A stretch of 64,000 nt of DNA from Mobula hypostoma (Eukaryota), in contig NC_086097.1 in assembly GCF_963921235.1 (NCBI RefSeq), forward strand, positions 18,540,001 through 18,604,000, read 5' to 3'. Shown one piece after another: positions 5,746 through 57,917 of this stretch. The notes under the pieces are model-generated. The model worked only from the letters and a program-made list of their open reading frames with translations, was not told the DNA's origin and searched no databases. Positions within the stretch are counted from its first letter, which is position 1. Every line of letters starts with the position of its first letter. The position numbers were made by a program, and so were the translations under genes.

Positions 5746-6035
5746 ACAGATACCGATCCGCGAAGAATGCAGCGGTAGCCGGGAGGCACCCAGCACATCT
5801 TTAAGAAAAGAAGCCGAAATAAACAAGCTAATTAATTAGGTACCGCCCGGCACGTAAATGTCGGCCCAGATCAGAGACAATTGCCGAATGCGTCGCCTCT
5901 GATATGGGTCGACATTTACGTGCCGGGCGGCACCTAATTAATTAGCTTGTTTGTTTCAGCTTTGTTTCTTAAAGATGTGTTGGGTGTGTCCCGGGCACCG
6001 CTGGACCCCTGCATGCTTCGCAGATCGGTATCTGT
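5746..6035. repeat. Long imperfect inverted repeat (~130-bp arms) inside the Tigger element
   Basis: Left arm acagataccgatc...aaacaagctaattaattaggtaccgcccggcacgtaaatgtcggcccagatcagag pairs with right arm ctctgatatgggtcgacatttacgtgccgggcggcacctaattaattagcttgttt...gatcggtatctgt. Confidence 0.95.
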
Positions 6036-6174: not shown

Positions 6175-7335
6175 CACACAGGAGATTAGTGTGCAAACTT
6201 AAGCACACGGTATTGGGGGTAAGGTATTGATGTGGATGGAGAATTTGTTAGCAGACAGGAAGCAAAGAGTGGGAATAAATGGGACCTTTTCAGAATGGCA
6301 GGCGATGACTAGTGGGGTACCGCAAGGCTCAGTGCTGGGACCCCAGTTGTTTACTATATATATTAATGACTTGGATGAGGGAATTAAATGCAGCATCTCC
6401 AAGTTTGCGGATGACACGAAGCTGGGTGGCAGTGTTAGCTGTGAGGAGGATGCTAAGAGGATGCAGAGTGACTTGGATAGGTTGGGTGAGTGGGCAAATT
6501 CATGGCAGATGCAATTTAATGTGGATAAATGTGAAGTTATCCACTTTGGTGGCAAAAATAGGAAAACAGATTATTATCTGAATGGTGGCCGATTAGGAAA
6601 AGGGGAGGTGCAACGAGACCTGGGTGTCATTATACACCAGTCATTGAAAGTGGGCATGCAGGTACAGCAGGCGGTGAAAAAGGCGAATGGTATGCTGGCA
6701 TTTATAGCGAGAGGATTCGAGTACAGGAGCAGGGAGGTACTACTGCAGTTGTACAAGGCCTTGGTGAGACCACACCTGGAGTATTGTGTGCAGTTTTGGT
6801 CCCCTAATCCGAGGAAAGACATCCTTGCCATAGAGGGAGTACAAAGAAGGTTCACCAGATTGATTCCTGGGATGGCAGGACTTTCATATGAAGAAAGACT
6901 GGATGAACTGGCTTGTACTCGTTGGAATTTAGAAGATTGAGGGGGGATCTGATTGAAACGTATAAGATCCTAAAGGGATTGGACAGGCTAGATGCAGGAA
7001 GATTGTTCCCGATGTTGGGGAAGTCCAGAACAAGGGGTCACAGTTTGAGGATAAAGGGGAAGCCTTTTAGGACCGAGATTAGGAAAAACTTCTTCACACA
7101 GAGAGTGGTGAATCTGTGGAATTCTCTGCCACAGCAAACTGTTGAGGCCAGTTCATTGGCTATATTTAAGAGGGAGTTAGATATGGCCCTTGTGGCTACG
7201 GGGATCAGGGGGTATGGAGGGAAGGCTGGGGCGGGGTTCTGAGTTGGATGATCAGCCATGATCATAATAAATGGCGGTGCAGGCTCGAAGGGCCGAATAG
7301 CCTACTCCTGCACCTATTTTCTATGTTTCTATGTT
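6175..7335 (+). mobile_element. Young 5'-truncated CR1 (RT C-terminal half) nested in the Tigger element
   Basis: ORFs 6227-6940 and 6913-7242 (GVPQGSVLGP, FADD) are almost identical to 49862-51025. One-base deletion near 6910; (ctatgttt)n tail. Confidence 0.95.
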
Positions 7336-9406
7336 TATATCGGCTGTGTATTTTTACGTGTTATTTGGTATGATTTAGCAGCTTCATAGCTTAAAGGTTA
7401 CTGGAGAGCGCTTGCGCCGTGTTTTTGCCGAGAGTGCTTGTGTGAGATTTTCGCTACGGAGAACAGTGCAGGCAATTATTGTGGAAAAGTATTTCTACTT
7501 TATATAGGCTGTGTATTCATCATATAATTCCTGCTTTTACTACATGTTACTGTTATTTTAGATTTTATGTGTTATTTGGCATGATTTGGTAGGTTATTTT
7601 TGGGTCTGCAAATGCTCACAAATTTTTCTCATATAAATAAATGGTAATTGCTTCTTCGCTTTACAACATTTCAGCTTACGAATTGTTTCATAGGAACGCT
7701 CTACCTTCGGATGGCGAGGGAAACCTGTATACAAAATTATAAGTGGTACAGATAGGGTAAATGCAAGCAGGCATTGTCCACTGAGGCTGGGTGGGACTAC
7801 AATCAGAAATCATGGGTGAAGTGTGAAAGGTGAAAATTTTAAGGGGAACATGAGGGCAAACTTCTTTACTCAGAGGGTCATGAGAATGTAGAACGAGCTG
7901 CCAGCACAGGTGGTGCATGCAAGTTTGATTTCAATGTTTAAAAGAAGTTTGAATAAGTAGACGGATGTTAGGGGTATGGAGGGCTATGGTACCGGTGCAG
8001 GTCGACGAGAGTAGGCAGTTTAAGTGGTTCGGCATGGACTAGATGGGCTGAAGGGCCTTTTTCCATGCTGTACTTTTCTATGAATAGGTGACAGCAGCAG
8101 AAGACCACAAGCATACACTCACCTGGCAACATTTAGAACTAGCCACACATCATGAAAGACACAGCTCTGTGTACGTCCCATTTATTCAGCCTTTGGCATG
8201 GGATGCATCTGAACAGGAAGCACTGGCCTGCATCTTCTGTACTGAAGGATTCATGAGTCTTACTCACCTCCCTCCACAAAACATCATCTTCCAGTCATAA
8301 AGTGCTTAAAAGCACAGCACAAGGTGATAAGCCTTCAGGCATTTTTTTTGAAAGGCTTGGAAGACTACGACATCACAAAAATTTAGTGTTTAGCTGCCAG
8401 AGCTTCAGCAATTGGATAGATGCCAGTTAAAGCAGATTATTTTTAAAGCTTTGATGTTTTTCTGAGACTGAAGGAGATTGTGCAAGAATAGATGAAGTTG
8501 TGAAATTGTGAAGTGATTTCTGACTGGGTTCAGTCAGACGGGCACTGTTTCAGTGCCTTCGTTCAATTATGTACAAGATGATAAGAGGCATTGATCAAAT
8601 GGACAGTCACAGAGTTTTTCCCAGGGGGAATTGGCTAAAGTAAGGTGGCATAATTTGAGGGTGTTTGGAGGAAAGTATGAAGGGCTCATGTCCATAAGAC
8701 CATAGGACATAGGAGTAGAATTGGGCTATTTGGCCCATTGAGTCTGCTCCACTATTCAACCATGGCTGATCCAGTCTTCCCCTCCTCAGTCCCACTCCCC
8801 AGCCTTCTCCCTGTAACCTTTGATGCCGTGTGCAATCAAAATCCTATCAATCTCTGCCTTAAATACACCTAATGACCTGGCTTCTACAGCTGCCTGTGGT
8901 AATAAATTTCACACATTTACCACCCTTTCACTAATGAAATTTCTCCACATCTCTGTTTTAAATGGACGCCCTCTATCCTGAAGATGTTCCCTCTTGTCCT
9001 AGATTTCCCCGCCATGGGAACCATCCTTTCCACATCCACTCTGTCTAGGCCTTTCAACATTCGAAAGGTTTCAATGATATCCCCCATCATCCTTCTAAAT
9101 TCTAGCGAGTACAGACCCAGAGCTATCAAATGTTCCTCATATGATAATCCTTTCATTTTGGGAGTCATTCTTGTGAACCTCCTCTGAAAACTCTCCAATG
9201 TCAGCACGTCTTTTCTTAGATAAGAATCTCAGAACTGTTCACAATACTCAAGGTGAGGCCTCACCAGTGCCTTATAAAGCCTCAGCATCACATCCCTGCT
9301 CTAATATTCCAGACCTCTTGAACTGAATGCTGACTTTGCAGAAGAACTCCCAAGTCCCTTTACATCTCAGATTTTTGGATTTTTTTGCCCATTTAGAAAA
9401 TAGTCT

Positions 9407-9662
9407 TGTAGTCGCACTCATACGCAACGAGTGAAAGCAGCACACTGAGTCGAGCAGGGTCTGGTTGAACTGTTTACTGTTTAAATCCGCACGCACTTAA
9501 GTGCCCGCTCCCAGCATCCCCCGCTCTTTGCGGGGCGGATGTGACATCGGCTTTCGGGCCGAAATCTGCCCCGCACTCAGAGCCTTCTCGGTTGCCGCTG
9601 GCTGCGGACTCCCCCGGCGACTGCTGGAGACGGTTCGCTTGCCGCGTGGGCGAGCCGCCACA
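9407..9662 (-). repeat. 3' LTR of the Gypsy element
   Basis: Direct repeat of 13440-13677. The adjacent C run at ~9666-9677 is the polypurine tract on the minus strand. Confidence 0.95.
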
Positions 9663-9679
9663 TGACCCCCCCCCCCCAC

Positions 9680-11000
9680 CCAGAACCAGTGCTAGGAGGT
9701 GCAGACTCCACAACCTGCACACTGTCAGTTCTTTTACGTGGCCGGCCTCGTCGTCCTGGGGGTGGCACCGCAACCGGGCGTTCAAGGTCTAGATGCGCCG
9801 GTTTGAAACGGTCAATGGTAAAAGTCTCTTCATGGCCGCCGATGTGGAGAACGCAGGTCGTCCCATTATGGCGCACCACCTTATAGGGTCCTTTGTATGG
9901 TCGCCGCAGGGATGGTCTGTGCGCCCCTCGGCGAACGAAATCATATTTGCTCTGTTGCGGGTCCCAGGGCACGAAAGAGGGTGCTGTTCTGTGATGGGAT
10001 GTCGAGACTGGGGCAAGTGTTCCAAGCCGCTCCCGGAGTTTAGTTAGGACCGCCGTAGGTGTGTCCTCCTGGCCACGGGGTGCTGGCACAAACTCACCGG
10101 GAACTGTGAGCGGGGCACTGTAAACAAGTTCAGCCGATGATGTGGCCAGGTCCTCCTTGGGTGCCGTGCGGATGCCAAGCAGCACCCAGGGGAGTTCGTC
10201 AACCCAGTCTGGCCCTCGGAGGCATGCCATCAGGGCTGACTTCAAGTGCCTGTGGAAACGTTCCGCCAGGCCGTTGGGGACTGCAGGTGGTAAGCAGTCG
10301 TTCGGTGGAGCTGGGTTCTGAGGAGTTGTGCCAGTGCAGACCACAAAGCCGATGTGAACTGCACACCCCTATCTGAAGTGACGTGGGCTGGGAGTCTGAA
10401 CCGTGCCACCCAGGTGGTAATCAGGGCTCTGGCACATGTCTCCGTGGACGTGTCAGCGAGTGGGATAGCTTCCAGCCACCTCGTGAACCTGTCCACCATG
10501 GTGAACAGGTATCTCGCTCCTCTCAAAACCGGCAGTGGGCTGACGATGTCCACATGGACATGTTCAAACCTCCTATGTGTCAGCTGGAAGGGTTGCAGTG
10601 CGTGCATGTCCTGGCCCAGTGCCCGACCTGCTTGTGTAGGTCGTGCCACACAAACCTGTCTGCGATCAGCCGGATGGTCACCCGGATGGAAGGGTGGGCT
10701 AAACCGTGCAAGGCGTCGAAAACCCGGCGCCCCCAAGCAGTCGGGACAATGGGCTGAGGTTGCCCGGTGGACACATCGCAAAGGTGCTCAATACTTTTGG
10801 ACCCAATGGGTATGTCTTCGAGGTGGAGTCCTGAGACTGCGGTTCAGTACGCCAGCATCTCGCTGTCCAGTCGTTGCGCCTCAGCTAACGCCGCATAATT
10901 CTCCCCTGGAGACAGAGAGTGCACTGATTAGACAGAGGTGTGTGACAGCGTGTCGACTACCACATTGCCCTTCCCGGAGATGTGCTTGATCCTGGTGGTA
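9680..11000 (-). pseudogene. Gypsy integrase, frameshifted
   Basis: HGLAHP..W.RTCTHC zinc-binding motif; HVHVDIVSPLP..YLFTMVDRFTRW, VTSDRGVQFTS, NGLAERFHRHLK; GPY/F-type LRRPYKGPYKVV. Confidence 0.9.
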
Positions 11001-12376
11001 AGCTCTGAGATGTACGACAGGTGGCGTTGCTGGCGGCCTGACCATGGGTCCGGCACTTTGGCAAACACAAAAGTGAGGGGCTTGTGGTCTGTGAAGACCG
11101 TGAACTCTCTCCCTTCCAGGAACTACCTGAAGTGCCGGATGGCAAGGTACAGGGCCAGCAGCTCCCTGTCGAAAGGGCAGGACTTAAGTTCCAGGGGTCG
11201 TAGGTGCTGGCTGAAAAAGGCGAGCGGCTTCCACTGACCTTTGATGAGCTGCTCGAGCACACCGCCAACTGCCGCGTCGGAAGCATCCACAGTGAGGGCA
11301 GTGAGGACATCGACTCGAGGGTGGACCAGGAGCGTGGCGTTTTCTAGCGCGTTCTTGGCTTGTTCAAAAGCCACTGTCACCTCCTCTGTCCAGGTGACCT
11401 CTTTGACCCTGCCAGACATCAAGCTGAAAAGGGGCCGCATGATCTGGGCCGCTGAGGGCAGGAAACGGTGATAAAAGTTAACCATCCCAACAAATTCCTG
11501 CAGGCCTTTAAGTGTGCTGGGTCTGGCAAATTGGCGGATGGCGTCAACTTTTGCCGGCAGGGGCAGAGCTCCATGGCGGCCGATCCGGTGTCCCAAGAAG
11601 TCGATGGCGGGTAGGCTGAACTGGCACTTGACAGGGTTGATAGCCAGGCCGTAGTTGCTTAGGCGGTGGAAGAGCAGGCGTAAATGTGCTAGATGTTCCT
11701 GGTGGGAGCGGCTGGCGATAAGTATGTCATCCAGGCAGATGAACAGAAAGCCCAGATCTCGCCCTACTGCGTCCATCAGGCACTGGAACATCTGTGCTGC
11801 GTTTTTGAACCCAAACGGCATCCTGACGAACTCGAACAGGCCAAAGGGGGTAATGAGGGCCGTCTTGGGTACATCCGGGTGGACTGGGATCTGATGATAC
11901 CCTTGTACCAGGTCAATCTTCGAAAAGATGCGCGTCCCGTGCAGGTTGGCCGTAAAGTCCTGGATGTGCGGTACTAGATAGCGATCAGACATGGTGGCGT
12001 CGTTCAGCCTCCTATAGTCGCCGCACGGTCTCCACCCTCCCTCGGACTTGGGCACCATACGGAGTGGGGAGGCCCACGGGCTGTTGGAACGCCGCACAAT
12101 CCCCATCTCCTCCATCTTCTTGAATTCCTCTTTTGCGAGGCGGAGCTTGTCGGGCGGATGCCTGCGGGCCTGGGCATGAAGGGGAGGTCCCGGTGTGGGG
12201 ATGTGGTGCATCACGCCATGCTTGGGGTCTGTTGAGGAAAACTGCGGCGTGATGATAGATGGGAACTCCGATAACACTCTGGCGAACTCATCGGAATAAA
12301 TGACGGAATCCAGGTGTGGAGCCGGTAACCTGGCCTCACCGAGGGAGAAAGTCTGGAACGTCTTCGCATCGACCAA
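11000..12376 (-). pseudogene. Gypsy reverse transcriptase-RNase H
   Basis: WASPLRMVPK..WRPCGDYRRLN, FSKIDLVQGYHQIP, MPFG, CLDD (degenerate YLDD), TVDASDAAVGGVL, DRELLALY. In-frame stop at 11123. Confidence 0.92.
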
Positions 12377-12700
12377 TCAACGTCCCTTCAAATCCACAAG
12401 CAGGCAGTGCACGCGGAGGAAGTCCAAACTTAGCAATGGCTGTGATACTGTGGCCAGCGTAAATGTCCGTGTAAAGTGGCTGGAACCGAACTGCAAGGGG
12501 GTGGTTCTTGTGCTGTAGGTGCAGATGGTGCTGCTGTTGGCTGCCGTAAGTTCTGGTCCTGTTCTTCTAGTTCGGGTATCATGGCTAGAGGGGGGTAGGA
12601 CACTGATTTCCGCCCCCGTGTCCACCAGGAATCTTTGCCTGGAGAGCTTGTCCCAAACATAGAGGAGGCTATCACGGTGACCAGCCGCCGTAGCCATCAG
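12377..12700 (-). pseudogene. Gypsy aspartic protease
   Basis: FLVDTGAEISVLP active-site motif; in-frame stop before RT. Confidence 0.88.
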
Positions 12701-12918
12701 CGACGGCTGGTCCTGGCGTTTCCCTGGAACGAGCATGGCGGTCGGCAGTGGCGGGCCCCGGAACCCCACTTTTGATGGTAAAAACACCAAGACTCAGAAG
12801 TGGTGCCGTCCCTTGGTGTGAGTGTTACATGCTCTGCTGCTGGGGTGTGGGAGGGCTGGGCTTTTGACCGTGCTGCAGCACTAATTTCGATGGCGGTTCC
12901 GCCATTTTGTTTGGCGCG

Positions 12919-13401
12919 TCAAAGCACGTCCGCATGGGCAGCCACCCTGCGCGGGTCTCTGAAGTCTTCATCTGCTAGCAGGAGGTGGATGTCTTCTGGA
13001 ATTTGCTCCAAGAAGATCTGTTCAAAAAGCAGGCAAGGCTTATGGCCGTCTGCCAGCGCTAGCATATCGCTCATCAGGGCTGGTGGCATGCGGTCGCTTA
13101 GGCTGTCCATATGCAGTAACCACCCGGCCCGTTCACGGCAGGAGAGGCCAAATGTGTGGATTAACAGGGCCTTGAGTGCTTCGTACCTGTCTGTTGCCGG
13201 GGGCTGATGCAGAAAGTCGATAACGTGGCCCGCTGTCTCCTGGTTGAGGGTGCCCACCACGTAGTAATACCTGGTGGCGTCTGAGACAATTTGCCTGACC
13301 TGGAACTGGGCCTCTGCTTGCTCGAACCAGACCGGGGGTTGAGTGGTGCAGAAGGTTGGCAGTTTAAGGGAAACTGCATTCTGCAGAGCCGAGTCGTTCA
13401 T
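12919..13401 (-). pseudogene. Gypsy gag (N-terminal part)
   Basis: AVSLKLPTF....P.VWFEQAEAQF...RYYYVV motif immediately downstream of the PBS; premature stop. Confidence 0.85.
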
Positions 13402-13420
13402 GTCGGGTCCAAGTGCCATT

Positions 13421-13438
13421 GGACCATCAGGGTCACCA
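13421..13438 (-). promoter_or_regulatory. Primer binding site, tRNA-Trp-like
   Basis: Minus strand reads TGGTGACCCTGA one base after the 5' LTR, similar to the complement of the tRNA-Trp 3' end (TGGTGACCCCGA). Confidence 0.75.
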
Positions 13439-13439
13439 A

Positions 13440-13677
13440 TGTGGTCGCGCTGATACCCAACTGAGTGGAGCAGGATCTGGTTGAACTGTTTACTGTTTAA
13501 ATTTGTGCACGCTTAAGTGCCCGCTCCCAGCATCCCCTGCTCTTTGCAGGGCAGAAGTGACGTCGGCTTCCAGGCCGAGGTCTGCCCCGCACTCAGAGCC
13601 CTCTCGGTTGCCGCTGACTGCGGACTCACCCGCGACTGCTGGAGCCGGTTCGCTTGCCGCATGGGCAAGCTGCCGCA
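13440..13677 (-). repeat. 5' LTR of the Gypsy element
   Basis: Direct repeat of 9407-9662 with substitutions and a ~17-bp indel. Confidence 0.95.
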
Positions 13678-22984: not shown

Positions 22985-23480
22985 CACAGCCATATAACAT
23001 GTAAACAGGCCCACTGTCCTATTCAGTCCATACCAAACAAAATCCCACCTAAGCTCTCCCCAACTGCCTGTGTTTGGCTCATAGCTCTCCAAACTTCTCC
23101 CATCCATGTCTCATCCAAGTGACTTTTACATCTGGCTCCACCACTTCTTCTGACATTTCATTCCATATCTGCACCACCCACTGTGTGAAGAAATTGCCTC
23201 CCAGGTTTCTATTAAATCTCACCCATTTCACACTAAACCTATGCCCTCTAGTCTTGATTCCTCAACTGTAGGAAAAAGACTGTGCACATTCACCCTGTCT
23301 ATGTCTCACGTAATTGTGTACACCTCTGCAAGATCTCCCATCATTCTCAAATGCTCCAACGAAGGAAATCTCAACCTGATCAACTTCTCTCCTTATTCTC
23401 TCCCTCGAGTTCTGGCAACAACCTTGTAAATCTCCTCTGCACTCTTTTCAGCTTAATGTCATCTTTCCTTTACTAAACTG
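22985..23480 (-). mobile_element. Old CR1-like 3' fragment
   Basis: caccacccactgtgtgaagaaattgcc and ttgtaaatctcctctgcactc are reverse complements of FFTQ.VV and VQRRFT motifs. Confidence 0.7.
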
Positions 23481-23775
23481 AACAAATCTAAACTTGTATT
23501 AGAGAATCTCTGGGACAAGTAAAAGAGGAACTTTGACAGAGTAATTGGGACCAGTTAACATGAAGGCAAAAGCTCACTGTTTTGTTTATTAGCTTGGCAA
23601 GGCTCGCCGGAAAGTACAGACGGCAGTGAAGTACATGATGCCCAATGCAAAACAGACTTGATGTAAGTGGAGAGTTACTTGAAATGAACTAAGTTAAAAA
23701 TTCAGGTATCAGGCGTCACCAAGGAGCATTGTATGAAAGAACTGAAGATCCATGTTTACTAACTCTTCCTTCAGT

Positions 23776-23813
23776 TAGTCCTGCCGAAGGGTCTCGACCT
23801 GAAACGTCGACTA
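23776..23813 (+). ncRNA. Minimal type-I hammerhead ribozyme motif with a core variant (CUGCCGA)
   Basis: tagtc-CTGCCGA-agg(gtctcga)cct-GAAA-cgTC^gacta: 5-bp stem I, 3-bp stem II, ACGU palindromic mini stem III, GUC site ending at 23808. Confidence 0.65.
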
Positions 23814-24232
23814 TACCTCTTCCTAGAGATGCTGCCTGGCCTGCTGCATTCACCAGCAACTTTAATGTGTGTTGCTTGAATTTCCAGCATCTGCAGAATT
23901 CCTGTTGTTTGCGTTTTAAAATTCACTACTGCAAAGCCTCTTCCGGTGATGCCTACACCAAAGAAGTTGTCTTCGACGGGAGTTCAGTGAAACCATCTCT
24001 CACTGCTCCCCATCTGTAATTTCTTCGGCTCTTCAACTTTTCGACCACATTTTGACTCAGACTCGCTATCACAGCCATATATCCTTTCTTGGAACGTGAT
24101 CCTCTCATATTCCCTTTGCCAATCACCTGTCCAGCTCTTGGCTCCATCCCTCTCCCTCCTGTCTTCTCCTATCATTTTGGATCTCACCCTCCCCCTCCCA
24201 CTTTCATATCTCTTACTAACTCTTCCTTCAGT

Positions 24233-24270
24233 TAGTCCTGACGAAGGGTCTCGGCCTGAAACATCGACTG
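24233..24270 (+). ncRNA. Minimal type-I hammerhead ribozyme motif with intact CUGANGA/GAAA core
   Basis: tagtc-CTGACGA-agg(gtctcgg)cct-GAAA-caTC^gactg; predicted cleavage after 24265 (AUC triplet). Confidence 0.75.
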
Positions 24271-24479
24271 TACCTCTTCCTAGAGATGCTGCCTGGCCTG
24301 CTGTGTTCACCAGCAACTTTGATGTGTGTTGCTTGAATTTCCAGCATCTGCAGAATTCCTGTTGTTTACATTGTGTTGTTTTCCTGAAGGCGATGTTTTA
24401 CATAATGGTCCACAGTTTTGGTTATTTCAGTTTGAGCTATGAAATGAAATACAATCCTACACCAGTGGGATTCACCAAT

Positions 24480-25016
24480 TGTGAACAGTTTTGGATCCCT
24501 ATCTTCAGGAAGGGTGTGCTGGCATTGGAGGGTCCAGAAGAGGGTCACCAATTTTATCCCGGGAATGAAAGGGAGAAGTGTTTGATGGATCTGGGCTTGT
24601 ACTCATTGGAGTTTTGAAGAATGAGAGGAATCTCATTGAAACCTATTGAATATTCAAAGGCCTAGATAGAGTGGATGTGGGGAGGATGCTTCCTACAATG
24701 GGGAAGTCTAGGAACAGAGGACACAGCCTTAGAATAGAAGGACATCCCTTTAGACTAGAGACAAGTATGGATTTCTTTAGCCAGCGGATGATGGATTTGT
24801 GGAATTCATTGCCACAGACAGCTGTGGAAACCAAGTCATTGGATATATTTAAAATGAAGGTTGATAGGCTCCTGATTAGTATGGGGTCAAAGGATATGGG
24901 GAAAAGGCAGGAGAATAGGGTTGAGGGGGTAATAAATCCACCATGATGGAATGGTGCAGGGGACTCGATGGCCTGAATGGCCTAATTCTGTTCCTATTTC
25001 TTATGGTCTTATGGTT
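24480..25016 (+). mobile_element. CR1 3' fragment
   Basis: CEQFW..LGLYSLEF..RGHSLRIEGHPF..FFSQRMMDLWNSLP; (tcttatgg)n tail. Confidence 0.85.
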
Positions 25017-29050: not shown

Positions 29051-29486
29051 CAGCCCAATTGGCTGGAGGAACTCATCAGATCAGGCAGCACTTATGGAAA
29101 TGGATAAATATTTGATGTTTTGGGCCAAGATCCTTCACCAGTCTTGACTTGCTGAGTTTCTCCAGCATTTTGTGTGTGTTGTTTTGGATTTCCAGCATCT
29201 GCAGACCTTCTCGTGTTTAGGCCAACAGAATCTGATTTAATTTGATGTAATCACCACATTTCATTCTGTTTCAATGAAACAAATGAAACTAATCTTTAAT
29301 CATCATTATCCGGCTCCCTCCAGGAACTTGGTGAGTCCTGAATAGCTTCAACCCATGGATCTACAAACTACAGCCATGGTGGGACAAATGGTTTGTTTCC
29401 AAGTAGTGTAACACTGCAAAAAAATCAGGGTACAGGCTATTAATATGCCACTTTCCTCCATCATAATAAAACACAAATAGACGTCA

Positions 29487-29959: not shown

Positions 29960-30533
29960 AAACACACAAATGCTGGAGGAACTCAGCGGGTCAGGTAACT
30001 TCAATGAAAAGGAATAAATAGTCGGCGTTTCCAGCTGAGACCCTTCATCAGGAATGGAAAGGAAGGGGGAAGAAGCTAGAATGAGGAGCTGGGAAAAGGG
30101 GAAGGAGTACAAGCTAGAAAGTGGTGGGTGAAGCCAGGTGAGCGGGAAGGTGGATGTGCGAGGGGGGACGAAATGAGAAGGTGGGAGGTGATAGGTGGAA
30201 AAGGTAAAAGGCTGAAAAGAAGGAATCTGACAGGAGATGAAAGTGGACCATGGGAAAAAGGTAAGGAGGAGGGGCACTGGGAGGAGGGGATAGGCAGGCG
30301 AGGAGAAGGTAAGGGGGGAGCCAGAGTGAGGAATGGAGCAAAAGGGAAGGGTGATGGGGGAAAAATTACTGGAAATCAGAGAAATCGATGTTCATCCCAT
30401 CAGATTGGAGGCTAACCAAATGGAATATGAGGTGTTGCTCCTCCAACCAGGGGGTGGCCTCATCATGACAGTAGAGGAGGCCATTGACCAACATGACAGA
30501 ATGGAATGGAAATTGGAATTAAAATGGTTGGCA
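29960..30533 (-). mobile_element. Penelope-like element 3' end with GIY-YIG endonuclease C-terminus and hammerhead motif
   Basis: Minus strand encodes ANHFNS..HS and GLLYCHDEATPWLEEQHLIFHLVSLQSDGMNIDFS, then a pyrimidine tract, then cattc-ctgatga-agggtctcagctg-gaaa-cgcc-gacta (30019-30056). Confidence 0.85.
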
Positions 30534-47419: not shown

Positions 47420-47920
47420 GTGATAGGGGACTCAATAGTAAGGGGGTCAGATAGGCGATTCTGTGGACGCAGTCCAGAGACCCGGATGGTAGTTTGCCTC
47501 CCTGGTGCCAGGGTCCGGGATATTTCTGATCGTGTCCAAGATATCCTGAAGTGGGAGGGTGAGGAGCCAGAGGTCGTGGTACATATAGGTACCAATGACA
47601 TAGGTAGGAAAAGGGATGAGGTCCTGAAAGAAGAATATAGGGAGCTAGGAAGGGAGTTGAGAAAAAGGACCGCAAAGGTAGTAATCTCGGGATTACAGCC
47701 TGTGCCACGCGACAGTGAGAGTAGGAATGCGATGAGGTGGAGGACAAATGCGTGGCTGAGGGATTGGAGCAGGGGGCAGGGATTCAAGTTTTTGGATCAT
47801 TGGGACCTCTTTTGGTGCAGGCGTGACCTGTACAAAAAGGACGGGTTACACTTGAATCCTAGGGGGACCAATATCCTGGCAGGGAGATTAGCGGGGGCTA
47901 CTGAGGTGACTTTAAACTAG
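47420..47920 (+). CDS. CR1 ORF1 C-terminal SGNH/GDSL esterase domain (partial)
   Basis: IGDSIVRG, PGA, HIGTND and DGLH blocks, uninterrupted to TAG at 47918-47920. Confidence 0.9.
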   Translation: MIGDSIVRGSDRRFCGRSPETRMVVCLPGARVRDISDRVQDILKWEGEEPEVVVHIGTNDIGRKRDEVLKEEYRELGRELRKRTAKVVISGLQPVPRDSESRNAMRWRTNAWLRDWSRGQGFKFLDHWDLFWCRRDLYKKDGLHLNPRGTNILAGRLAGATEVTLN

Positions 47921-47925
47921 AATGG

Positions 47926-50925
47926 TTGGGGGGTGGGAATCAAATTAAAGAGGCTAGGCGTGAGGAGGTTAGTTCACAACAGAGGGATGGGAACCAGTGC
48001 AGAGAGACAGAGGGGTGTAAAGTGAGCGTAGAAGCAAAAAGTACAAAGGAGAAAAGTAAAAGTGGCAGGCCGACAAATCCAGGGCAAGCATTAAAAAGGG
48101 CTAAGAGAGTTGTAAAAGAGCGCCTGAAGGCTTTATGTGTCAATGCAAGGAGCATTCGTAATAAGGTGGATGAATTGAAAGTGCAGATTGTTATTAATGA
48201 TTATGATATAGTTGGGATCACAGAGACATGGCTCCAGGGCGACCAGGGATGGGAGCTCAACGTTCAGGGATATTCAATATTCAGGAGGGATAGACATGAA
48301 GGAAGGGGAGGTGGGGCGGCGTTGCTGGTTAAAGGAGAGATTAACGCAATAGAAAGGAAGGACATAAGCCGGGAAGATGTGGAATCGATATGGGTAGAGC
48401 TGCGTAACACTAAGGGGCAGAAGACGCTGGTGGGAGTTGTGTACAGGCCACCTAACAGTAGTAGTGAGGTCGGAGATGGTATTAAACAGGAAATTAGAAA
48501 TGTGTGCAATAAAGGAACAGCAGTTATAATGGGTGACTTCAATCTACATGTAGACTGGGTGAACCAAATTGGTAAAGGTGCTGAGGAAGAGGATTTCTTG
48601 GAATGTATGCAGGATGGTTTTTTGAACCAACATGTCGAGGAACCGACTAGAGAGCAGGCTATTCTGGACTGGGTTTTGAGCAATGAGGAAGGGTTAATTA
48701 GCGATCTTGTCGTGAGAGGCCCCTTGGGTAAGAGTGACCATAATATGGTGGAATTCTTCATTAAGATGGAGAGTGACATAGTTAATTCAGAAACAAAGGT
48801 TCTGAACTTAAAGAGGGGTAACTTTGAAGGTATGAGACGTGAATTAGCTAAGATAGACTGGCAAATGACACTTAAAGGATTGACGGTGGATATGCAATGG
48901 CAAGCATTTAAAGGTTGCATGGATGAACTACAACAATTGTTCATCCCAGTTTGGCAAAAGAATAAATCAAGGAAGGTAGTGCACCCGTGGCTGACAAGAG
49001 AAATTAGGGATAGTATCAATTCCAAAGAAGTAGCATACAAATTAGCCAGAGAAAGTGGCTCACCTGAGGACTGGGAGAAATTCAGAGTTCAGCAGAGGAG
49101 GACAAAGGGCTTAATTAGGAAGGGGAAAAAAGATTATGAGAGAAAACTGGCAGAGAACATAAAAACGGACTGTAAAAGCTTTTATAGATATGTAAAAAGG
49201 AAAAGACTGATAAAGACAAACGTAGGTCCCCTGCAGACAGAAACAGGTAAATTGATTATGGGGAGCAAGGACATGGCAGACCAATTGAATAATTACTTTG
49301 GTTCTGTCTTCACTAAGGAGGACATAAATAATCTTCCAGAAATAGTAAGGGACAGAGGGTCCAGTGAGATGGAGGAACTGAGTGAAATACATGTTAGTAG
49401 GGAAGTGGTGTTAGGTAAATTGAAGGGATTGAAGGCAGATAAATCCCCAGGGCCAGATGGTCTGCATCCCAGAGTGCTTAAGGAAGTAGCCCAAGAAATA
49501 GTGGATGCATTAGTGATAATTTTTCAAAACTCGTTAGATTCTGGACTAGTTCCTGAGGATTGGAGGGTGGCTAATGTAACCCCACTTTTTAAAAAAGGAG
49601 GGAGAGAGAAACCGGGGAATTATAGGCCGGTTAGCCTAACGTCGGTGGTGGGGAAACTGCTGGAGTCAGTTATCAAGGATGTGATAACAGCACATTTGGA
49701 AAGCGGTGAAATGATCGGACAAAGTCAGCATGGATTTGTGAAAGGAAAATCATGTCTGACGAATCTCATAGAATTTTTTGAGGATGTAACTAGTAGAGTG
49801 GATAGGGGAGAACCAGTGGATGTGGTATATTTGGATTTTCAAAAGGCTTTTGACAAGGTCCCACACAGGAGATTAGTGTGCAAACTTAAAGCACATGGTA
49901 TTGGGGGTAAGGTATTGGTGTGGGTGGAGAATTGGTTAGCAGACAGGAAGCAAAGAGTGGGAATAAACGGGACCTTTTCAGAATGGCAGGCGGTGACTAG
50001 TGGGGTACCGCAAGGCTCAGTGCTGGGACCCCAGTTGTTTACAATATATATTAATGACTTGGATGAGGGAATTAAATGCAGCATCTCCAAGTTTGCGGAT
50101 GACACGAAGCTGGGTGGCAGTGTTAGCAGTGAGGAGGATGCTAAGAGGATGCAGAGTGACTTGGATAGGTTGGGTGAGTGGGCAAACTCATGGCAGATGC
50201 AATTTAATGTGGATAAATGTGAAGTTATCCACTTTGGTGGCAAAAATAGGAAAACAGGTTATTATCTGAATGGTGGCCGATTAGGAAAAGGGGAGGTGCA
50301 ACGAGACCTGGGTGTCATTATACACCAGTCATTGAAAGTGGGCATGCAGGTACAGCAGGCGGTGAAAAAGGCGAATGGTATGCTGGCATTTATAGCGAGA
50401 GAATTTGAGTACAGGAGCAGGGAGGTACTACTGCAGTTGTGCAAGGCCTTGGTGAGACCACACCTGGAGTATTGTGTGCAGTTTTGGTCCCCTAATCTGA
50501 GGAAAGACATCTTTGCCATAGAGGGAGTACAAAGAAGGTTCACCAGATTGATTCCTGGGATGGCAGGTCTTTCATATGAAGAAAGACTGGATGAACTGGG
50601 CTTGTACTCGTTGGAATTTAGAAGATTGAGGGGGGATCTGATTGAAACGTATAAGATCCTAAAGGGATTGGACAGGCTAGATGCGGGAAGATTGTTCCCG
50701 ATGTTGGGGAGGTCCAGAACGAGGGGTCACAGTTTGAGGATAGAGGGGAAGCCTTTTAGGACCGAGATTAGGAAAAACTTCTTCACACAGAGAGTGGTGA
50801 ATCTGTGGAATTCTCTGCCACAGCAAACTGTTGAGGCCAGTTCATTGGCTATGTTTAAGAGGGAGTTAGATATGGCCCTTGTGGCTACAGGGGTCAGGGG
50901 GTATGGAGGGAAGGCTGGGTTCTGA
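47926..50925 (+). CDS. CR1 ORF2: APE endonuclease plus reverse transcriptase
   Basis: 999 codons without a stop: NARS, ITETW, YRPP, GDFN, SDHN; PGPDG, NYRPVSL, LDFQKAFD, PQGSVLGP, FADD. The track start is TTG; the first in-frame ATG is at 48529. Confidence 0.97.
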   Translation: MGGGNQIKEARREEVSSQQRDGNQCRETEGCKVSVEAKSTKEKSKSGRPTNPGQALKRAKRVVKERLKALCVNARSIRNKVDELKVQIVINDYDIVGITETWLQGDQGWELNVQGYSIFRRDRHEGRGGGAALLVKGEINAIERKDISREDVESIWVELRNTKGQKTLVGVVYRPPNSSSEVGDGIKQEIRNVCNKGTAVIMGDFNLHVDWVNQIGKGAEEEDFLECMQDGFLNQHVEEPTREQAILDWVLSNEEGLISDLVVRGPLGKSDHNMVEFFIKMESDIVNSETKVLNLKRGNFEGMRRELAKIDWQMTLKGLTVDMQWQAFKGCMDELQQLFIPVWQKNKSRKVVHPWLTREIRDSINSKEVAYKLARESGSPEDWEKFRVQQRRTKGLIRKGKKDYERKLAENIKTDCKSFYRYVKRKRLIKTNVGPLQTETGKLIMGSKDMADQLNNYFGSVFTKEDINNLPEIVRDRGSSEMEELSEIHVSREVVLGKLKGLKADKSPGPDGLHPRVLKEVAQEIVDALVIIFQNSLDSGLVPEDWRVANVTPLFKKGGREKPGNYRPVSLTSVVGKLLESVIKDVITAHLESGEMIGQSQHGFVKGKSCLTNLIEFFEDVTSRVDRGEPVDVVYLDFQKAFDKVPHRRLVCKLKAHGIGGKVLVWVENWLADRKQRVGINGTFSEWQAVTSGVPQGSVLGPQLFTIYINDLDEGIKCSISKFADDTKLGGSVSSEEDAKRMQSDLDRLGEWANSWQMQFNVDKCEVIHFGGKNRKTGYYLNGGRLGKGEVQRDLGVIIHQSLKVGMQVQQAVKKANGMLAFIAREFEYRSREVLLQLCKALVRPHLEYCVQFWSPNLRKDIFAIEGVQRRFTRLIPGMAGLSYEERLDELGLYSLEFRRLRGDLIETYKILKGLDRLDAGRLFPMLGRSRTRGHSLRIEGKPFRTEIRKNFFTQRVVNLWNSLPQQTVEASSLAMFKRELDMALVATGVRGYGGKAGF

Positions 50926-57619: not shown

Positions 57620-57917
57620 TGTGGTAAACCATATATATGTTGTAACTGGGTTAACTTTGTGGACACGCCCCTCTGCTGACTGCCCCTGTGGCTCCTCCCA
57701 CAGATCCCTGAATAAGGGTGATTTCGCCGTGCCCCTCCTCCTCAGTCCAGGGGCAGACACTCAGCATGGAAGTCGTATTGTACAGCGAATAAAAGCCTTT
57801 CAGTATTTACCCTAGCAACACACATCAAAGTTGCTTGAATTTCCAGCATCTGCAGAATTCCTCGTGTTTACAGTATTTACCCTACTTCAGTCTTTTGGAG
57901 TTATTGAAGGTGCTTCA
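57620..57917 (+). mobile_element. Probable solo LTR containing a 56-bp PLE micro-insertion
   Basis: TG...CA ends, flanks gtaaa and gtaat, AATAAA at 57788. The insert at 57815-57870 is flanked by cagtatttacccta on both sides. Confidence 0.55.

What the first reader, a model, noticed from the sequence alone, without database searches (positions are those of the whole stretch)
23756..24367. Retrozyme-like unit: two hammerhead motifs in 155-bp direct repeats, cleavage sites 457 nt apart
Seen: 23756-23910 repeats at 24213-24367, and each repeat contains stem I - CUG(A/C)CGA - stem II - GAAA - C(G/A)UC - stem I'. Stem I is tagtc/gacta in the first copy, whereas other copies have cagtc 5' arms and (g/a)actg 3' arms, which fits pairing-preserving change. 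The spacer joins an ORF-like start to the PLE 3' pyrimidine tract, with no RT or endonuclease. Established: Penelope-like elements carry minimal type-I hammerheads with a very short palindromic stem III that are thought to cleave as dimers, and non-autonomous retrozymes release monomer or circular RNAs between tandem hammerheads. Inference: this is a miniature non-autonomous PLE derivative whose transcript could release a 457-nt RNA (23809-24265). Caveat: the first core has CUGCCGA and the second lacks the ACGU palindrome, so this copy may be inactive or may need the two motifs to complement each other.
Basis: partly seen in the sequence, partly recalled or inferred. Interest (0 to 1): 0.8.

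Follow-up and report, generated by a model that had tools for sequence, protein, structure and literature searches.

The report
Internally deleted Penelope element, twin hammerheads
This 612-base insertion in a cartilaginous-fish genome consists of the two hammerhead-bearing end repeats of an abundant element, likely a Penelope-type jumping gene, with nearly all of its protein gene missing between them; it is likely an old, decaying by-product, not a working circular-RNA retrozyme.

Summary
23756-23910 repeats at 24213-24367 (155 nt, 7 mismatches), and each repeat has a minimal type I hammerhead with predicted cuts after 23808 and 24265. The unit is one insertion, flanked by a 7-nt target duplication. 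The spacer joins a frameshifted ORF start (ATG 23949, shark homologues) to the element's 3' tract at a 2-nt microhomology (24097-24098). In public contigs other family members leave the unit at that point on either side, so this is an internally deleted element, likely a Penelope-like element (PLE). The retrozyme reading is not supported. There are only 1.34 units, no listed contig bridges the junction, covariation is not above shuffle, the 457-nt RNA is not unusually self-paired, and both motifs are damaged (A6C in copy 1, broken ACGU palindrome in copy 2). Junction copy number could not be measured. The insertion appears shared by two species 3.6% apart in flank. PLE hammerheads, microhomology-deleted PLEs and PLE-derived vertebrate retrozymes are all published. 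This scan had already noted gutted and tandem PLE copies elsewhere in this genome, with other unit sizes. Verdict: ordinary.

The parts
23753..23759 (+). Left copy of a 7-nt target-site duplication or microhomology (TGTTTAC), overlapping the element's first 4 bases
   Evidence: 122 of 20,000 random flank pairs give a spanning match this long
23756..23910 (+). 5' terminal repeat (pseudo-LTR): 20 nt of 3' tract, hammerhead, then 97 nt to the family's usual 3' end
   Evidence: loose ends behind 23911 in 126 and 111 contigs of X1 and X2
23776..23813 (+). Minimal type I hammerhead 1; core CUGCCGA (A6C in this haplotype), intact ACGU palindrome, predicted cut after 23808
   Evidence: effect of A6C from PMC7151607
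23911..23948 (+). Leader between the pLTR end and the start codon
   Evidence: Sequence
23949..24098 (+). First 150 nt of the parent element's ORF, frameshifted near 23969 (reads MPTPKKLSS, then continues in another frame to ...HSHISFLGT)
   Evidence: 7 shark proteins match at E 4.5e-11 to 2e-4; loose end before 23970 in 3 contigs of X9
24097..24098 (+). Deletion junction: 2-nt microhomology TG shared by the ORF side and the 3' tract side
   Evidence: Loose ends before 24097 (122, 63, 7 contigs in X1, X2, X9) and behind 24098 (2 contigs in X9)
24097..24212 (+). Pyrimidine-rich 3' tract of the parent element
   Evidence: Summed contig depth 3.7-4.8 million in X1 against 0.05-0.14 million over the ORF start
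24213..24367 (+). 3' terminal repeat (pseudo-LTR) ending at the family's standard 3' end
   Evidence: 5 of 5 flank-joined ends matched by the script's pattern are followed by A; the internal end at 23910 by G
24233..24270 (+). Minimal type I hammerhead 2; core CUGACGA intact, ACGU palindrome decayed to ACAU, predicted cut after 24265
   Evidence: family letter at 24263 is G in 76% of X1 depth
24363..24369 (+). Right copy of the 7-nt target-site duplication or microhomology
23809..24265 (+). Hypothetical 457-nt monomer between the two cut sites; not shown to exist
   Evidence: Linear fold z -1.34, 8 of 100 shuffles as good; circular fold z -1.24, 5 of 60

Best explanation
The unit is a single insertion made of two near-identical hammerhead-bearing end repeats, the first 150 bases of a protein gene and that element's 3' tract, joined at a 2-base microhomology; it is likely a Penelope-like retroelement copy that lost its middle by a template jump during reverse transcription or by later repair, and it is likely inert and decaying. 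Shown: repeats, motifs, ORF start, junction, target duplication, and that other family members continue differently at the junction. Inferred: a tandem parent transcript, uncut at both hammerheads, was copied from the usual 3' end (24367) for about 270 nt. Copying then resumed in the ORF start through the TG microhomology (or a full-length insert later lost the interval), ran through the upstream repeat and stopped at 23756. The two hammerheads lie 457 nt apart only because the coding interval between the two pseudo-LTRs is gone. In this haplotype a transcript would at best be cut slowly at 23808 and would not release the 457-nt RNA efficiently.
For: Junction: contigs of three organisms enter the 3' tract at 24097 from other sequence (122, 63, 7 contigs), and 2 contigs of X9 leave the ORF at 24098 into a continuation that, read by eye in frame, matches the shark homologues' next residues. 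None of the 32 listed pieces bridges the junction; 4 lie in the ORF start, and they stop short of the junction or leave it (table 8). The ORF start carries about 1-3% of the summed depth of the 3' tract, so the deleted form cannot be a large part of the family (the tool warns this is not a copy number). Table 5 lists 15 of 321 joints, at depths 8-132 and many different positions, so ad hoc rearrangements of this family look common (the tool warns that such joints can come from repeats). One insertion event: 7-nt duplication, 122 of 20,000 by chance. Age and decay: the upstream flank contig runs 28 nt into the element in both X1 (0 differences) and X2 (11 differences, all in 306 nt of flank); 3 of the 7 repeat mismatches lie at CpG sites; the ORF start is frameshifted. 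A6C lowered a type II hammerhead from 0.30 to 3.6e-6 per min at 0.3 mM Mg2+ (PMC7151607). The double-hammerhead fold costs 26 kcal/mol against the free ensemble in a nearest-neighbour model, with helix III probability near 0 (no active control was folded). Precedent: a microhomology-deleted, pLTR- and TSD-flanked Penelope derivative in Adineta (PMC3846280).
Against: Junction copy number was not measured. 185,824 contig pieces were not shown, and a bridging contig between two high-copy parts would be short whether it is single or multicopy, so its absence from the list of longest pieces is weak evidence. The depth ceiling at 24060 (42,424 in X1, against 7.25 for the flank) still allows many copies. 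A 457-nt circle copied 1.34 times would give the same anatomy. A6C may be private to this haplotype: in X1 and X2 the flank contig's last letter, at 23784, is left unaligned, which suggests a letter other than C (inference). A6C also recovers at 1-10 mM Mg2+ (0.067-0.33 per min) and with Mn2+. The 28 nt of element in the flank contigs fall under the tool's 31-letter bar for bridging. No RT or GIY-YIG domain was linked to this family by a database hit.
Confidence: 0.72

Rival explanations
1. The unit is one copy of an amplified non-autonomous PLE family: a deleted master element was transcribed and moved in trans by the parent's RT-endonuclease as an uncut linear RNA, the hammerheads riding along.
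For: It keeps both end repeats, the standard 3' end and a target duplication. pLTRs alone suffice for mobilisation in trans (PMC3846280). Hammerhead cleavage is not needed for PLE insertion in vitro (PMC11167929). Putative non-autonomous PLE families with pLTRs exist, such as MRC1 (PMC8557442). The depth ceiling does not exclude it.
Against: 0 of 32 listed pieces bridge the junction; no second copy of the spacer in 64 kb; none of 4 proteins found with a frame that crosses the junction extends across it. Earlier scan notes report other deletion and tandem forms in this genome with other unit sizes (unchecked leads).
Confidence: 0.18
2. The unit is a true non-LTR retrozyme: family transcripts are cut by paired hammerheads, the 457-nt RNA is circularised, and this insertion is a 1.34-turn rolling-circle copy of that circle.
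For: The anatomy fits a more-than-unit copy of a circle. Unit length is within the 51-972 bp range of vertebrate retrozyme families, and these were found in the one chondrichthyan tested (10.64898/2026.07.22.740005). The family majority has an intact core and ACGU palindrome. Core 1 may be intact in other individuals (inference).
Against: Not a tandem array: Tandem Repeats Finder calls no 457 period. The monomer is not unusually self-paired. The motifs are of the PLE minimal type, which cut poorly even as dimers (PMC4209133), whereas the coral retrozymes with shown circles carry canonical motifs (PMC7229834). Only 1 of 9 PLE-related Xenopus dimers cleaved in vitro. No covariation above shuffle.
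Confidence: 0.07
3. The unit is an assembly misjoin or two independent neighbouring insertions.
For: No contig was laid over the right flank 24393-24474 and none spans the unit (the tool says a hole proves nothing).
Against: A 7-nt duplication spans both outer junctions (0.6% by chance). The left junction is present in two other organisms' contigs. The upstream part runs 188 nt past the family's normal 3' end into the ORF, which a separate normal insertion would not do.
Confidence: 0.03

Closest known systems
Minimal hammerheads (min-HHR) in the pLTRs of metazoan Penelope-like elements (Cervera and De la Pena 2014, PMC4209133; parts 1-2 of 4 read)
   Same: Type I motif in both terminal repeats, short helix I, bulged base between 9 and 10.1, helix III reduced to a palindrome, thought to need a dimer; mostly dispersed single copies from truncated elements.
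   Different: Helix II is only 4 bp and closes with G-U rather than the conserved G10.1-C11.1; the two motifs are 457 nt apart in the same sense rather than about 3 kb; both are damaged here.
Microhomology-deleted Penelope derivatives flanked by pLTRs and a TSD (Adineta vaga Pen2 derivative, PMC3846280; passages read)
   Same: Internal microhomology-mediated deletion, terminal repeats kept, target duplication of similar length (8-10 bp there, 7 here).
   Different: Direct rather than inverted pLTRs; almost the whole ORF is gone; vertebrate host.
Non-LTR retrozymes of animals (PMC7229834, parts 2-4 of 6 read; bioRxiv 10.64898/2026.07.22.740005, parts 1-3 of 5 read)
   Same: Non-coding unit of a few hundred bases between two type I hammerheads, GC under 50%, TSD longer than 4 bp, PLE ancestry.
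   Different: Those are amplified tandem repeats with, in the tested cases, efficient cleavage and abundant self-paired circles; this is 1.34 units with minimal, mutated motifs and no shown amplification or RNA.
Poseidon of Anolis carolinensis, PAc (PMC11167929; parts 1-2 of 4 read)
   Same: Insertions end about 90-100 nt downstream of the hammerhead cut site, at an internal RT start; AT-rich targets; the template is copied through an uncut hammerhead.
   Different: In PAc the ORF starts inside the hammerhead; here the ATG lies 141 nt downstream of the cut site, outside the repeat.

Membership tests
Penelope-like element (EN+) derivative | Direct pseudo-LTRs from a partial tandem, each with a type I hammerhead | tested here: met
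Penelope-like element (EN+) derivative | Heavy 5' truncation with a common 3' end and AT-rich targets | tested here: met
   Depth gradient from pLTR to ORF start and loose ends behind 23911 with AT-rich consensus
Penelope-like element (EN+) derivative | Parent ORF with telomerase-like RT and C-terminal GIY-YIG endonuclease | tested here: inconclusive
   The ORF start has 7 shark homologues, none with a Pfam family. A longer search found 3 proteins, none with RT. A sister copy at 30369-30518 (-) ends in a stretch I recall as the PLE GIY-YIG C-terminus, but Pfam, Atlas and PDB gave no hit. A recalled N-terminal PLE motif fits a shifted frame of 1 of 2 homologues; 55 of 2000 shuffles also do.
Penelope-like element (EN+) derivative | Clade placement (Poseidon, Neptune) by RT phylogeny | not testable with these tools
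   No RT sequence of the family was obtainable
Minimal type I hammerhead (min-HHR) | CUGANGA core, helix II, GAAA, palindromic 15.1-16.1, UH site, helix I | tested here: inconclusive
   All parts are present, and the family majority letters are intact; copy 1 has A6C and copy 2 lacks the palindrome, so neither copy is complete
Minimal type I hammerhead (min-HHR) | Compensatory changes among family copies | tested here: not met
   387 of 500 shuffles reach the covariation score on 11 window copies; small and decayed sample
Minimal type I hammerhead (min-HHR) | Self-cleavage as a dimer | not testable with these tools
   Needs an in vitro assay
Non-LTR retrozyme | Tandem repeat of at least two consecutive units, each with a complete hammerhead | tested here: not met
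   1.34 units; no 457 period by Tandem Repeats Finder; both motifs damaged; criterion
Non-LTR retrozyme | The unit is an amplified family | tested here: inconclusive
   0 of 32 listed pieces bridge the junction, but 185,824 pieces were not shown
Non-LTR retrozyme | Highly self-paired monomer | tested here: not met
   z -1.34 linear, -1.24 circular, 47% of bases paired
Non-LTR retrozyme | Expressed as linear and circular monomer RNA | not testable with these tools
   Only contigs were laid; they cannot show ends, strand or circles
Non-LTR retrozyme | Non-coding, no LTR, PBS or PPT, TSD longer than 4 bp | tested here: met
   No coding domain and a 7-nt duplication; PBS and PPT were not searched for

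The most novel reading that the evidence does not exclude
An amplified ray mini-element caught at the step from Penelope-like element to retrozyme: a deletion brought the two pLTR hammerheads close enough to pair in cis, intact copies release and circularise a 457-nt RNA, and this locus is a decayed 1.34-turn copy of that circle. It would give a defined parent, breakpoint and product with which to test whether minimal PLE hammerheads cut in vivo.
Probability: 0.07. Interest if true: 0.5.

Novelty: new member of a known kind. Interest (0 to 1): 0.15.

Why it matters
As best read, it matters little: one more rearranged, ageing copy of a very abundant element whose hammerheads, deletions and link to retrozymes are already published. 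It does show in one locus how a microhomology deletion can turn a PLE into a retrozyme-shaped unit, which is the proposed origin of animal retrozymes. If the junction proved multicopy and a circle were found, it would become a direct test of whether minimal PLE hammerheads cut in cells, which remains open (low activity in vitro, no reads at the cut site in Anolis RNA-seq).

Tried and rejected
No genome is held for this window, so the junction could not be counted. Rfam at E<=1: no hammerhead family, one weak miRNA-model match elsewhere. Junction pattern in metagenome contigs: 0; family hammerhead patterns in metagenome, viral and prokaryote contigs: also 0, so the control failed and these blanks say nothing. 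No RNA holder listed on record. Run X11 is only guessed to be RNA; it covers the family but not the flank 23450-23736, which is no evidence on expression. No cover over 24393-24474 in any of the 4 runs: not interpretable. The word-index protein search with the 48-aa ORF start found nothing; the HMMER search did, with 2 of its 9 hits being repeat-rich noise (P0002, P0003). The antisense frame across the junction hit 4 gene models, all within the terminal repeat only. Atlas, Pfam and PDB gave no usable hit for the ORF start or the sister copy's C-terminus. A candidate host exon at 23593-23662 (+) has splice-like ends by eye but no Pfam hit and no cover in X11; rejected as unsupported. Look-ups of earlier findings by sequence returned 0 even for the high-copy repeat, so they are insensitive. 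Paper searches for a description of this shark or ray family: 0 papers with all of Penelope-like, shark, Neptune, and none specific among the listings; Repbase and Dfam could not be searched.

Full report
Observation. The 155-nt repeat is there as stated: 23756-23910 and 24213-24367, ungapped, 7 mismatches, offset 457. Each copy has stem I (5 bp), a CUGANGA-type core, one bulged A, a 4-bp stem II closed by G-U with a CUCG loop, GAAA, a 4-nt stretch ending in UC, and the 3' arm of stem I; predicted cuts fall after 23808 and 24265. Copy 1 has CUGCCGA (A6C). Copy 2 has ACAU in place of the ACGU palindrome. A fuzzy scan finds 11 such motifs in the window, these two included. Rfam finds no hammerhead model match in the window.

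Host and family. The ORF start has 7 homologues, all from sharks, and the antisense repeat appears in Mobula gene models at 78-92% identity, so the host is a cartilaginous fish; earlier scan notes call it a ray (unchecked). No genome is held. I laid contigs of 4 of the 24 listed public runs on 23450-24650. Summed depth in X1 is 7 over the unique left flank, 7-9 million over the downstream repeat, 3.7-4.8 million over the 3' tract and 0.05-0.14 million over the ORF start. The tool warns that these are not copy numbers, but the gradient is that of a very abundant, mostly 5'-truncated retroelement. Many contigs end their match at 23911 into AT-rich sequence (126 in X1, 111 in X2), the family's usual 3' end. 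That end lies 102 nt past the cut site, close to the internal RT start of the anole element PAc, 111-118 nt into an ORF whose cut site is at +26 (PMC11167929, parts 1-2 read).

The spacer. An ATG at 23949 reads MPTPKKLSS, matching the MPxLKKL starts of the shark proteins; the match continues in another frame up to 24096. Three X9 contigs differ upstream of 23970, which places a small frameshifting loss near 23969 in this copy (size read by eye as a net 8 nt). At 24097, 122, 63 and 7 contigs of X1, X2 and X9 enter the 3' tract from other sequence, and 2 contigs of X9 leave the ORF at 24098 into sequence that continues the homologues' reading frame. The two sides share TG at 24097-24098. The unit is therefore repeat, ORF start, deletion, 3' tract, repeat. 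The same 7-mer spans both outer junctions; 122 of 20,000 random flank pairs do as well. This points to one insertion at one target.

PLE membership rests on architecture, not on a domain hit. Two direct repeats with minimal hammerheads, heavy 5' truncation and a fixed 3' end fit PLEs (PMC4209133, parts 1-2 read; PMC8557442, passages and section 6). A sister copy on the minus strand ends at 30369 in a stretch that I recall as the PLE GIY-YIG C-terminus, but Pfam, the Atlas and PDB gave nothing for it. No RT-bearing protein was reached from the ORF start. A recalled N-terminal motif fitted a shifted frame in 1 of 2 homologues, with 55 of 2000 shuffles doing the same: weak.

Age and decay. One 356-nt contig in X1 matches 23450-23783 with no difference, and one in X2 with 11 differences, all in the 306 nt of flank. 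Both run 28 nt into the element, just under the tool's 31-letter bar for bridging, so the insertion appears to predate the split of two organisms 3.6% apart. Three of the 7 repeat mismatches lie at CpG sites, and both copies carry their own departures from the family majority. In both contigs the last letter, at 23784, is unaligned. I infer that those individuals lack the C there, so A6C may be private to this haplotype or an assembly error. This counts against my reading and is not proven.

Would it release a 457-nt RNA? Minimal hammerheads are thought to work only as dimers and cut weakly even then. In the dimer, core 1 pairs with the stem I arm after site 2 and core 2 with the arm after site 1 (inferred; pairs listed). 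The shared helix III has 3 of 4 pairs, with a C-A mismatch next to core 1's closing pair. A6C cut a type II hammerhead's rate from 0.30 to 3.6e-6 per min at 0.3 mM Mg2+, with recovery at 1-10 mM Mg2+ and in Mn2+ (PMC7151607, passages and Table 1). The forced dimer fold costs 26 kcal/mol in ViennaRNA, a figure with no active control and no tertiary terms. Release needs both cuts, so it is unlikely from this haplotype. The monomer is not unusually structured, unlike described retrozyme circles (PMC7229834, parts 2-4 read). The insertion also begins 53 nt upstream of the first cut site, so its template was either an uncut linear RNA or a circle copied 1.34 times; PAc inserts from uncut RNA.

Is the deleted form amplified? 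Not settled. For a rare form: 0 of 32 listed pieces bridge the junction, the ORF start is about 1-3% of the 3' tract's depth, the spacer has no second copy in 64 kb, and 15 listed of 321 joints sit at varied positions and low depth. Against: 185,824 pieces were not shown, bridging contigs would be short, and the depth ceiling at 24060 is thousands of times the flank's. Pattern scans of microbial and viral collections found neither the junction nor the family, so they do not bear on it.

Comparison. It works like a dead partial-tandem PLE insertion. Microhomology-deleted, pLTR- and TSD-flanked Penelope derivatives are described in Adineta (PMC3846280, passages). PLE-derived non-LTR retrozymes are described across vertebrates, including the one chondrichthyan tested (mean unit 363 bp), with only 1 of 9 Xenopus dimers cleaving in vitro (10.64898/2026.07.22.740005, parts 1-3 read). 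By that paper's definition, two consecutive units each with a complete motif, this locus is not a retrozyme. That preprint's supplementary family tables could not be seen and may already hold this family. Earlier notes of this scan report a gutted copy with a 278-nt monomer and a tandem 460 nt apart in this genome, and a 618-bp rearranged copy in another; these are unchecked leads that agree with my reading but add no independent evidence.

Verdict. One-off or rare internally deleted PLE copy 0.72; amplified non-autonomous family moved as linear RNA 0.18; true circular-RNA retrozyme 0.07; artefact or two insertions 0.03. New member of a known kind, interest 0.15.

Noticed in passing
window 23784: The A6C change in hammerhead 1 is the natural core variant reported to favour Mn2+ over Mg2+ (PMC7151607); here it is likely a private neutral mutation, since the flank contigs of two other organisms leave this position unaligned.
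   Followed up: partly
proteins P0010-P0013 (match window 24213-24367, minus strand): Four Mobula gene models (Tim8 A, mago nashi, TMEM160, one uncharacterised) contain a translated antisense piece of this terminal repeat, suggesting exonisation of the repeat or annotation artefacts.
   Followed up: no
window 24234-24236: Hundreds of contigs begin their match at the 5' edge of hammerhead stem I (288, 127, 138 in X1), some with long low-agreement AT-rich loose ends: a possible 5'-truncation hot spot, mixed with sister-subfamily divergence.
   Followed up: no
window 24367, 29193-29219, 57153, 57844, 59228 (-): All 5 flank-joined repeat ends matched by the script's pattern are followed by A, the internal end by G, hinting at a TTT|A-type target preference.
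   Followed up: partly
window 30369-30518 (-): An older sister-subfamily copy keeps the last 50 codons of its ORF, recalled as the PLE GIY-YIG C-terminus, about 315 nt upstream of its hammerhead; no library hit.
   Followed up: partly
window 5770-6003: 107-nt inverted repeat, 89% complementary with 20 nt between the arms; weak Rfam MIR2871 match (E 0.0099, far below gathering); possibly a MITE.
   Followed up: no
window 57814-57872: Short close copy of the repeat's 3' end with a 22-nt inverted piece at its 5' side, the inverted-arm form typical of PLE insertions.
   Followed up: no
window 47905-50925 (+) and 6203-7340 (+): A 1006-aa open LINE-type endonuclease-RT frame (CR1-like by recall) with a 97-98% identical partial copy 43.7 kb away; a young LINE family.
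   Followed up: no
window 9577-13512 (-): Broken Gypsy-like gag-protease-RT-integrase frames, recognised by recall from the translations.
   Followed up: no
window 23593-23662 (+): 70-nt stretch with splice-like ends 93 nt upstream of the insertion; no Pfam hit and no cover in the guessed RNA run, so unsupported as an exon.
   Followed up: partly
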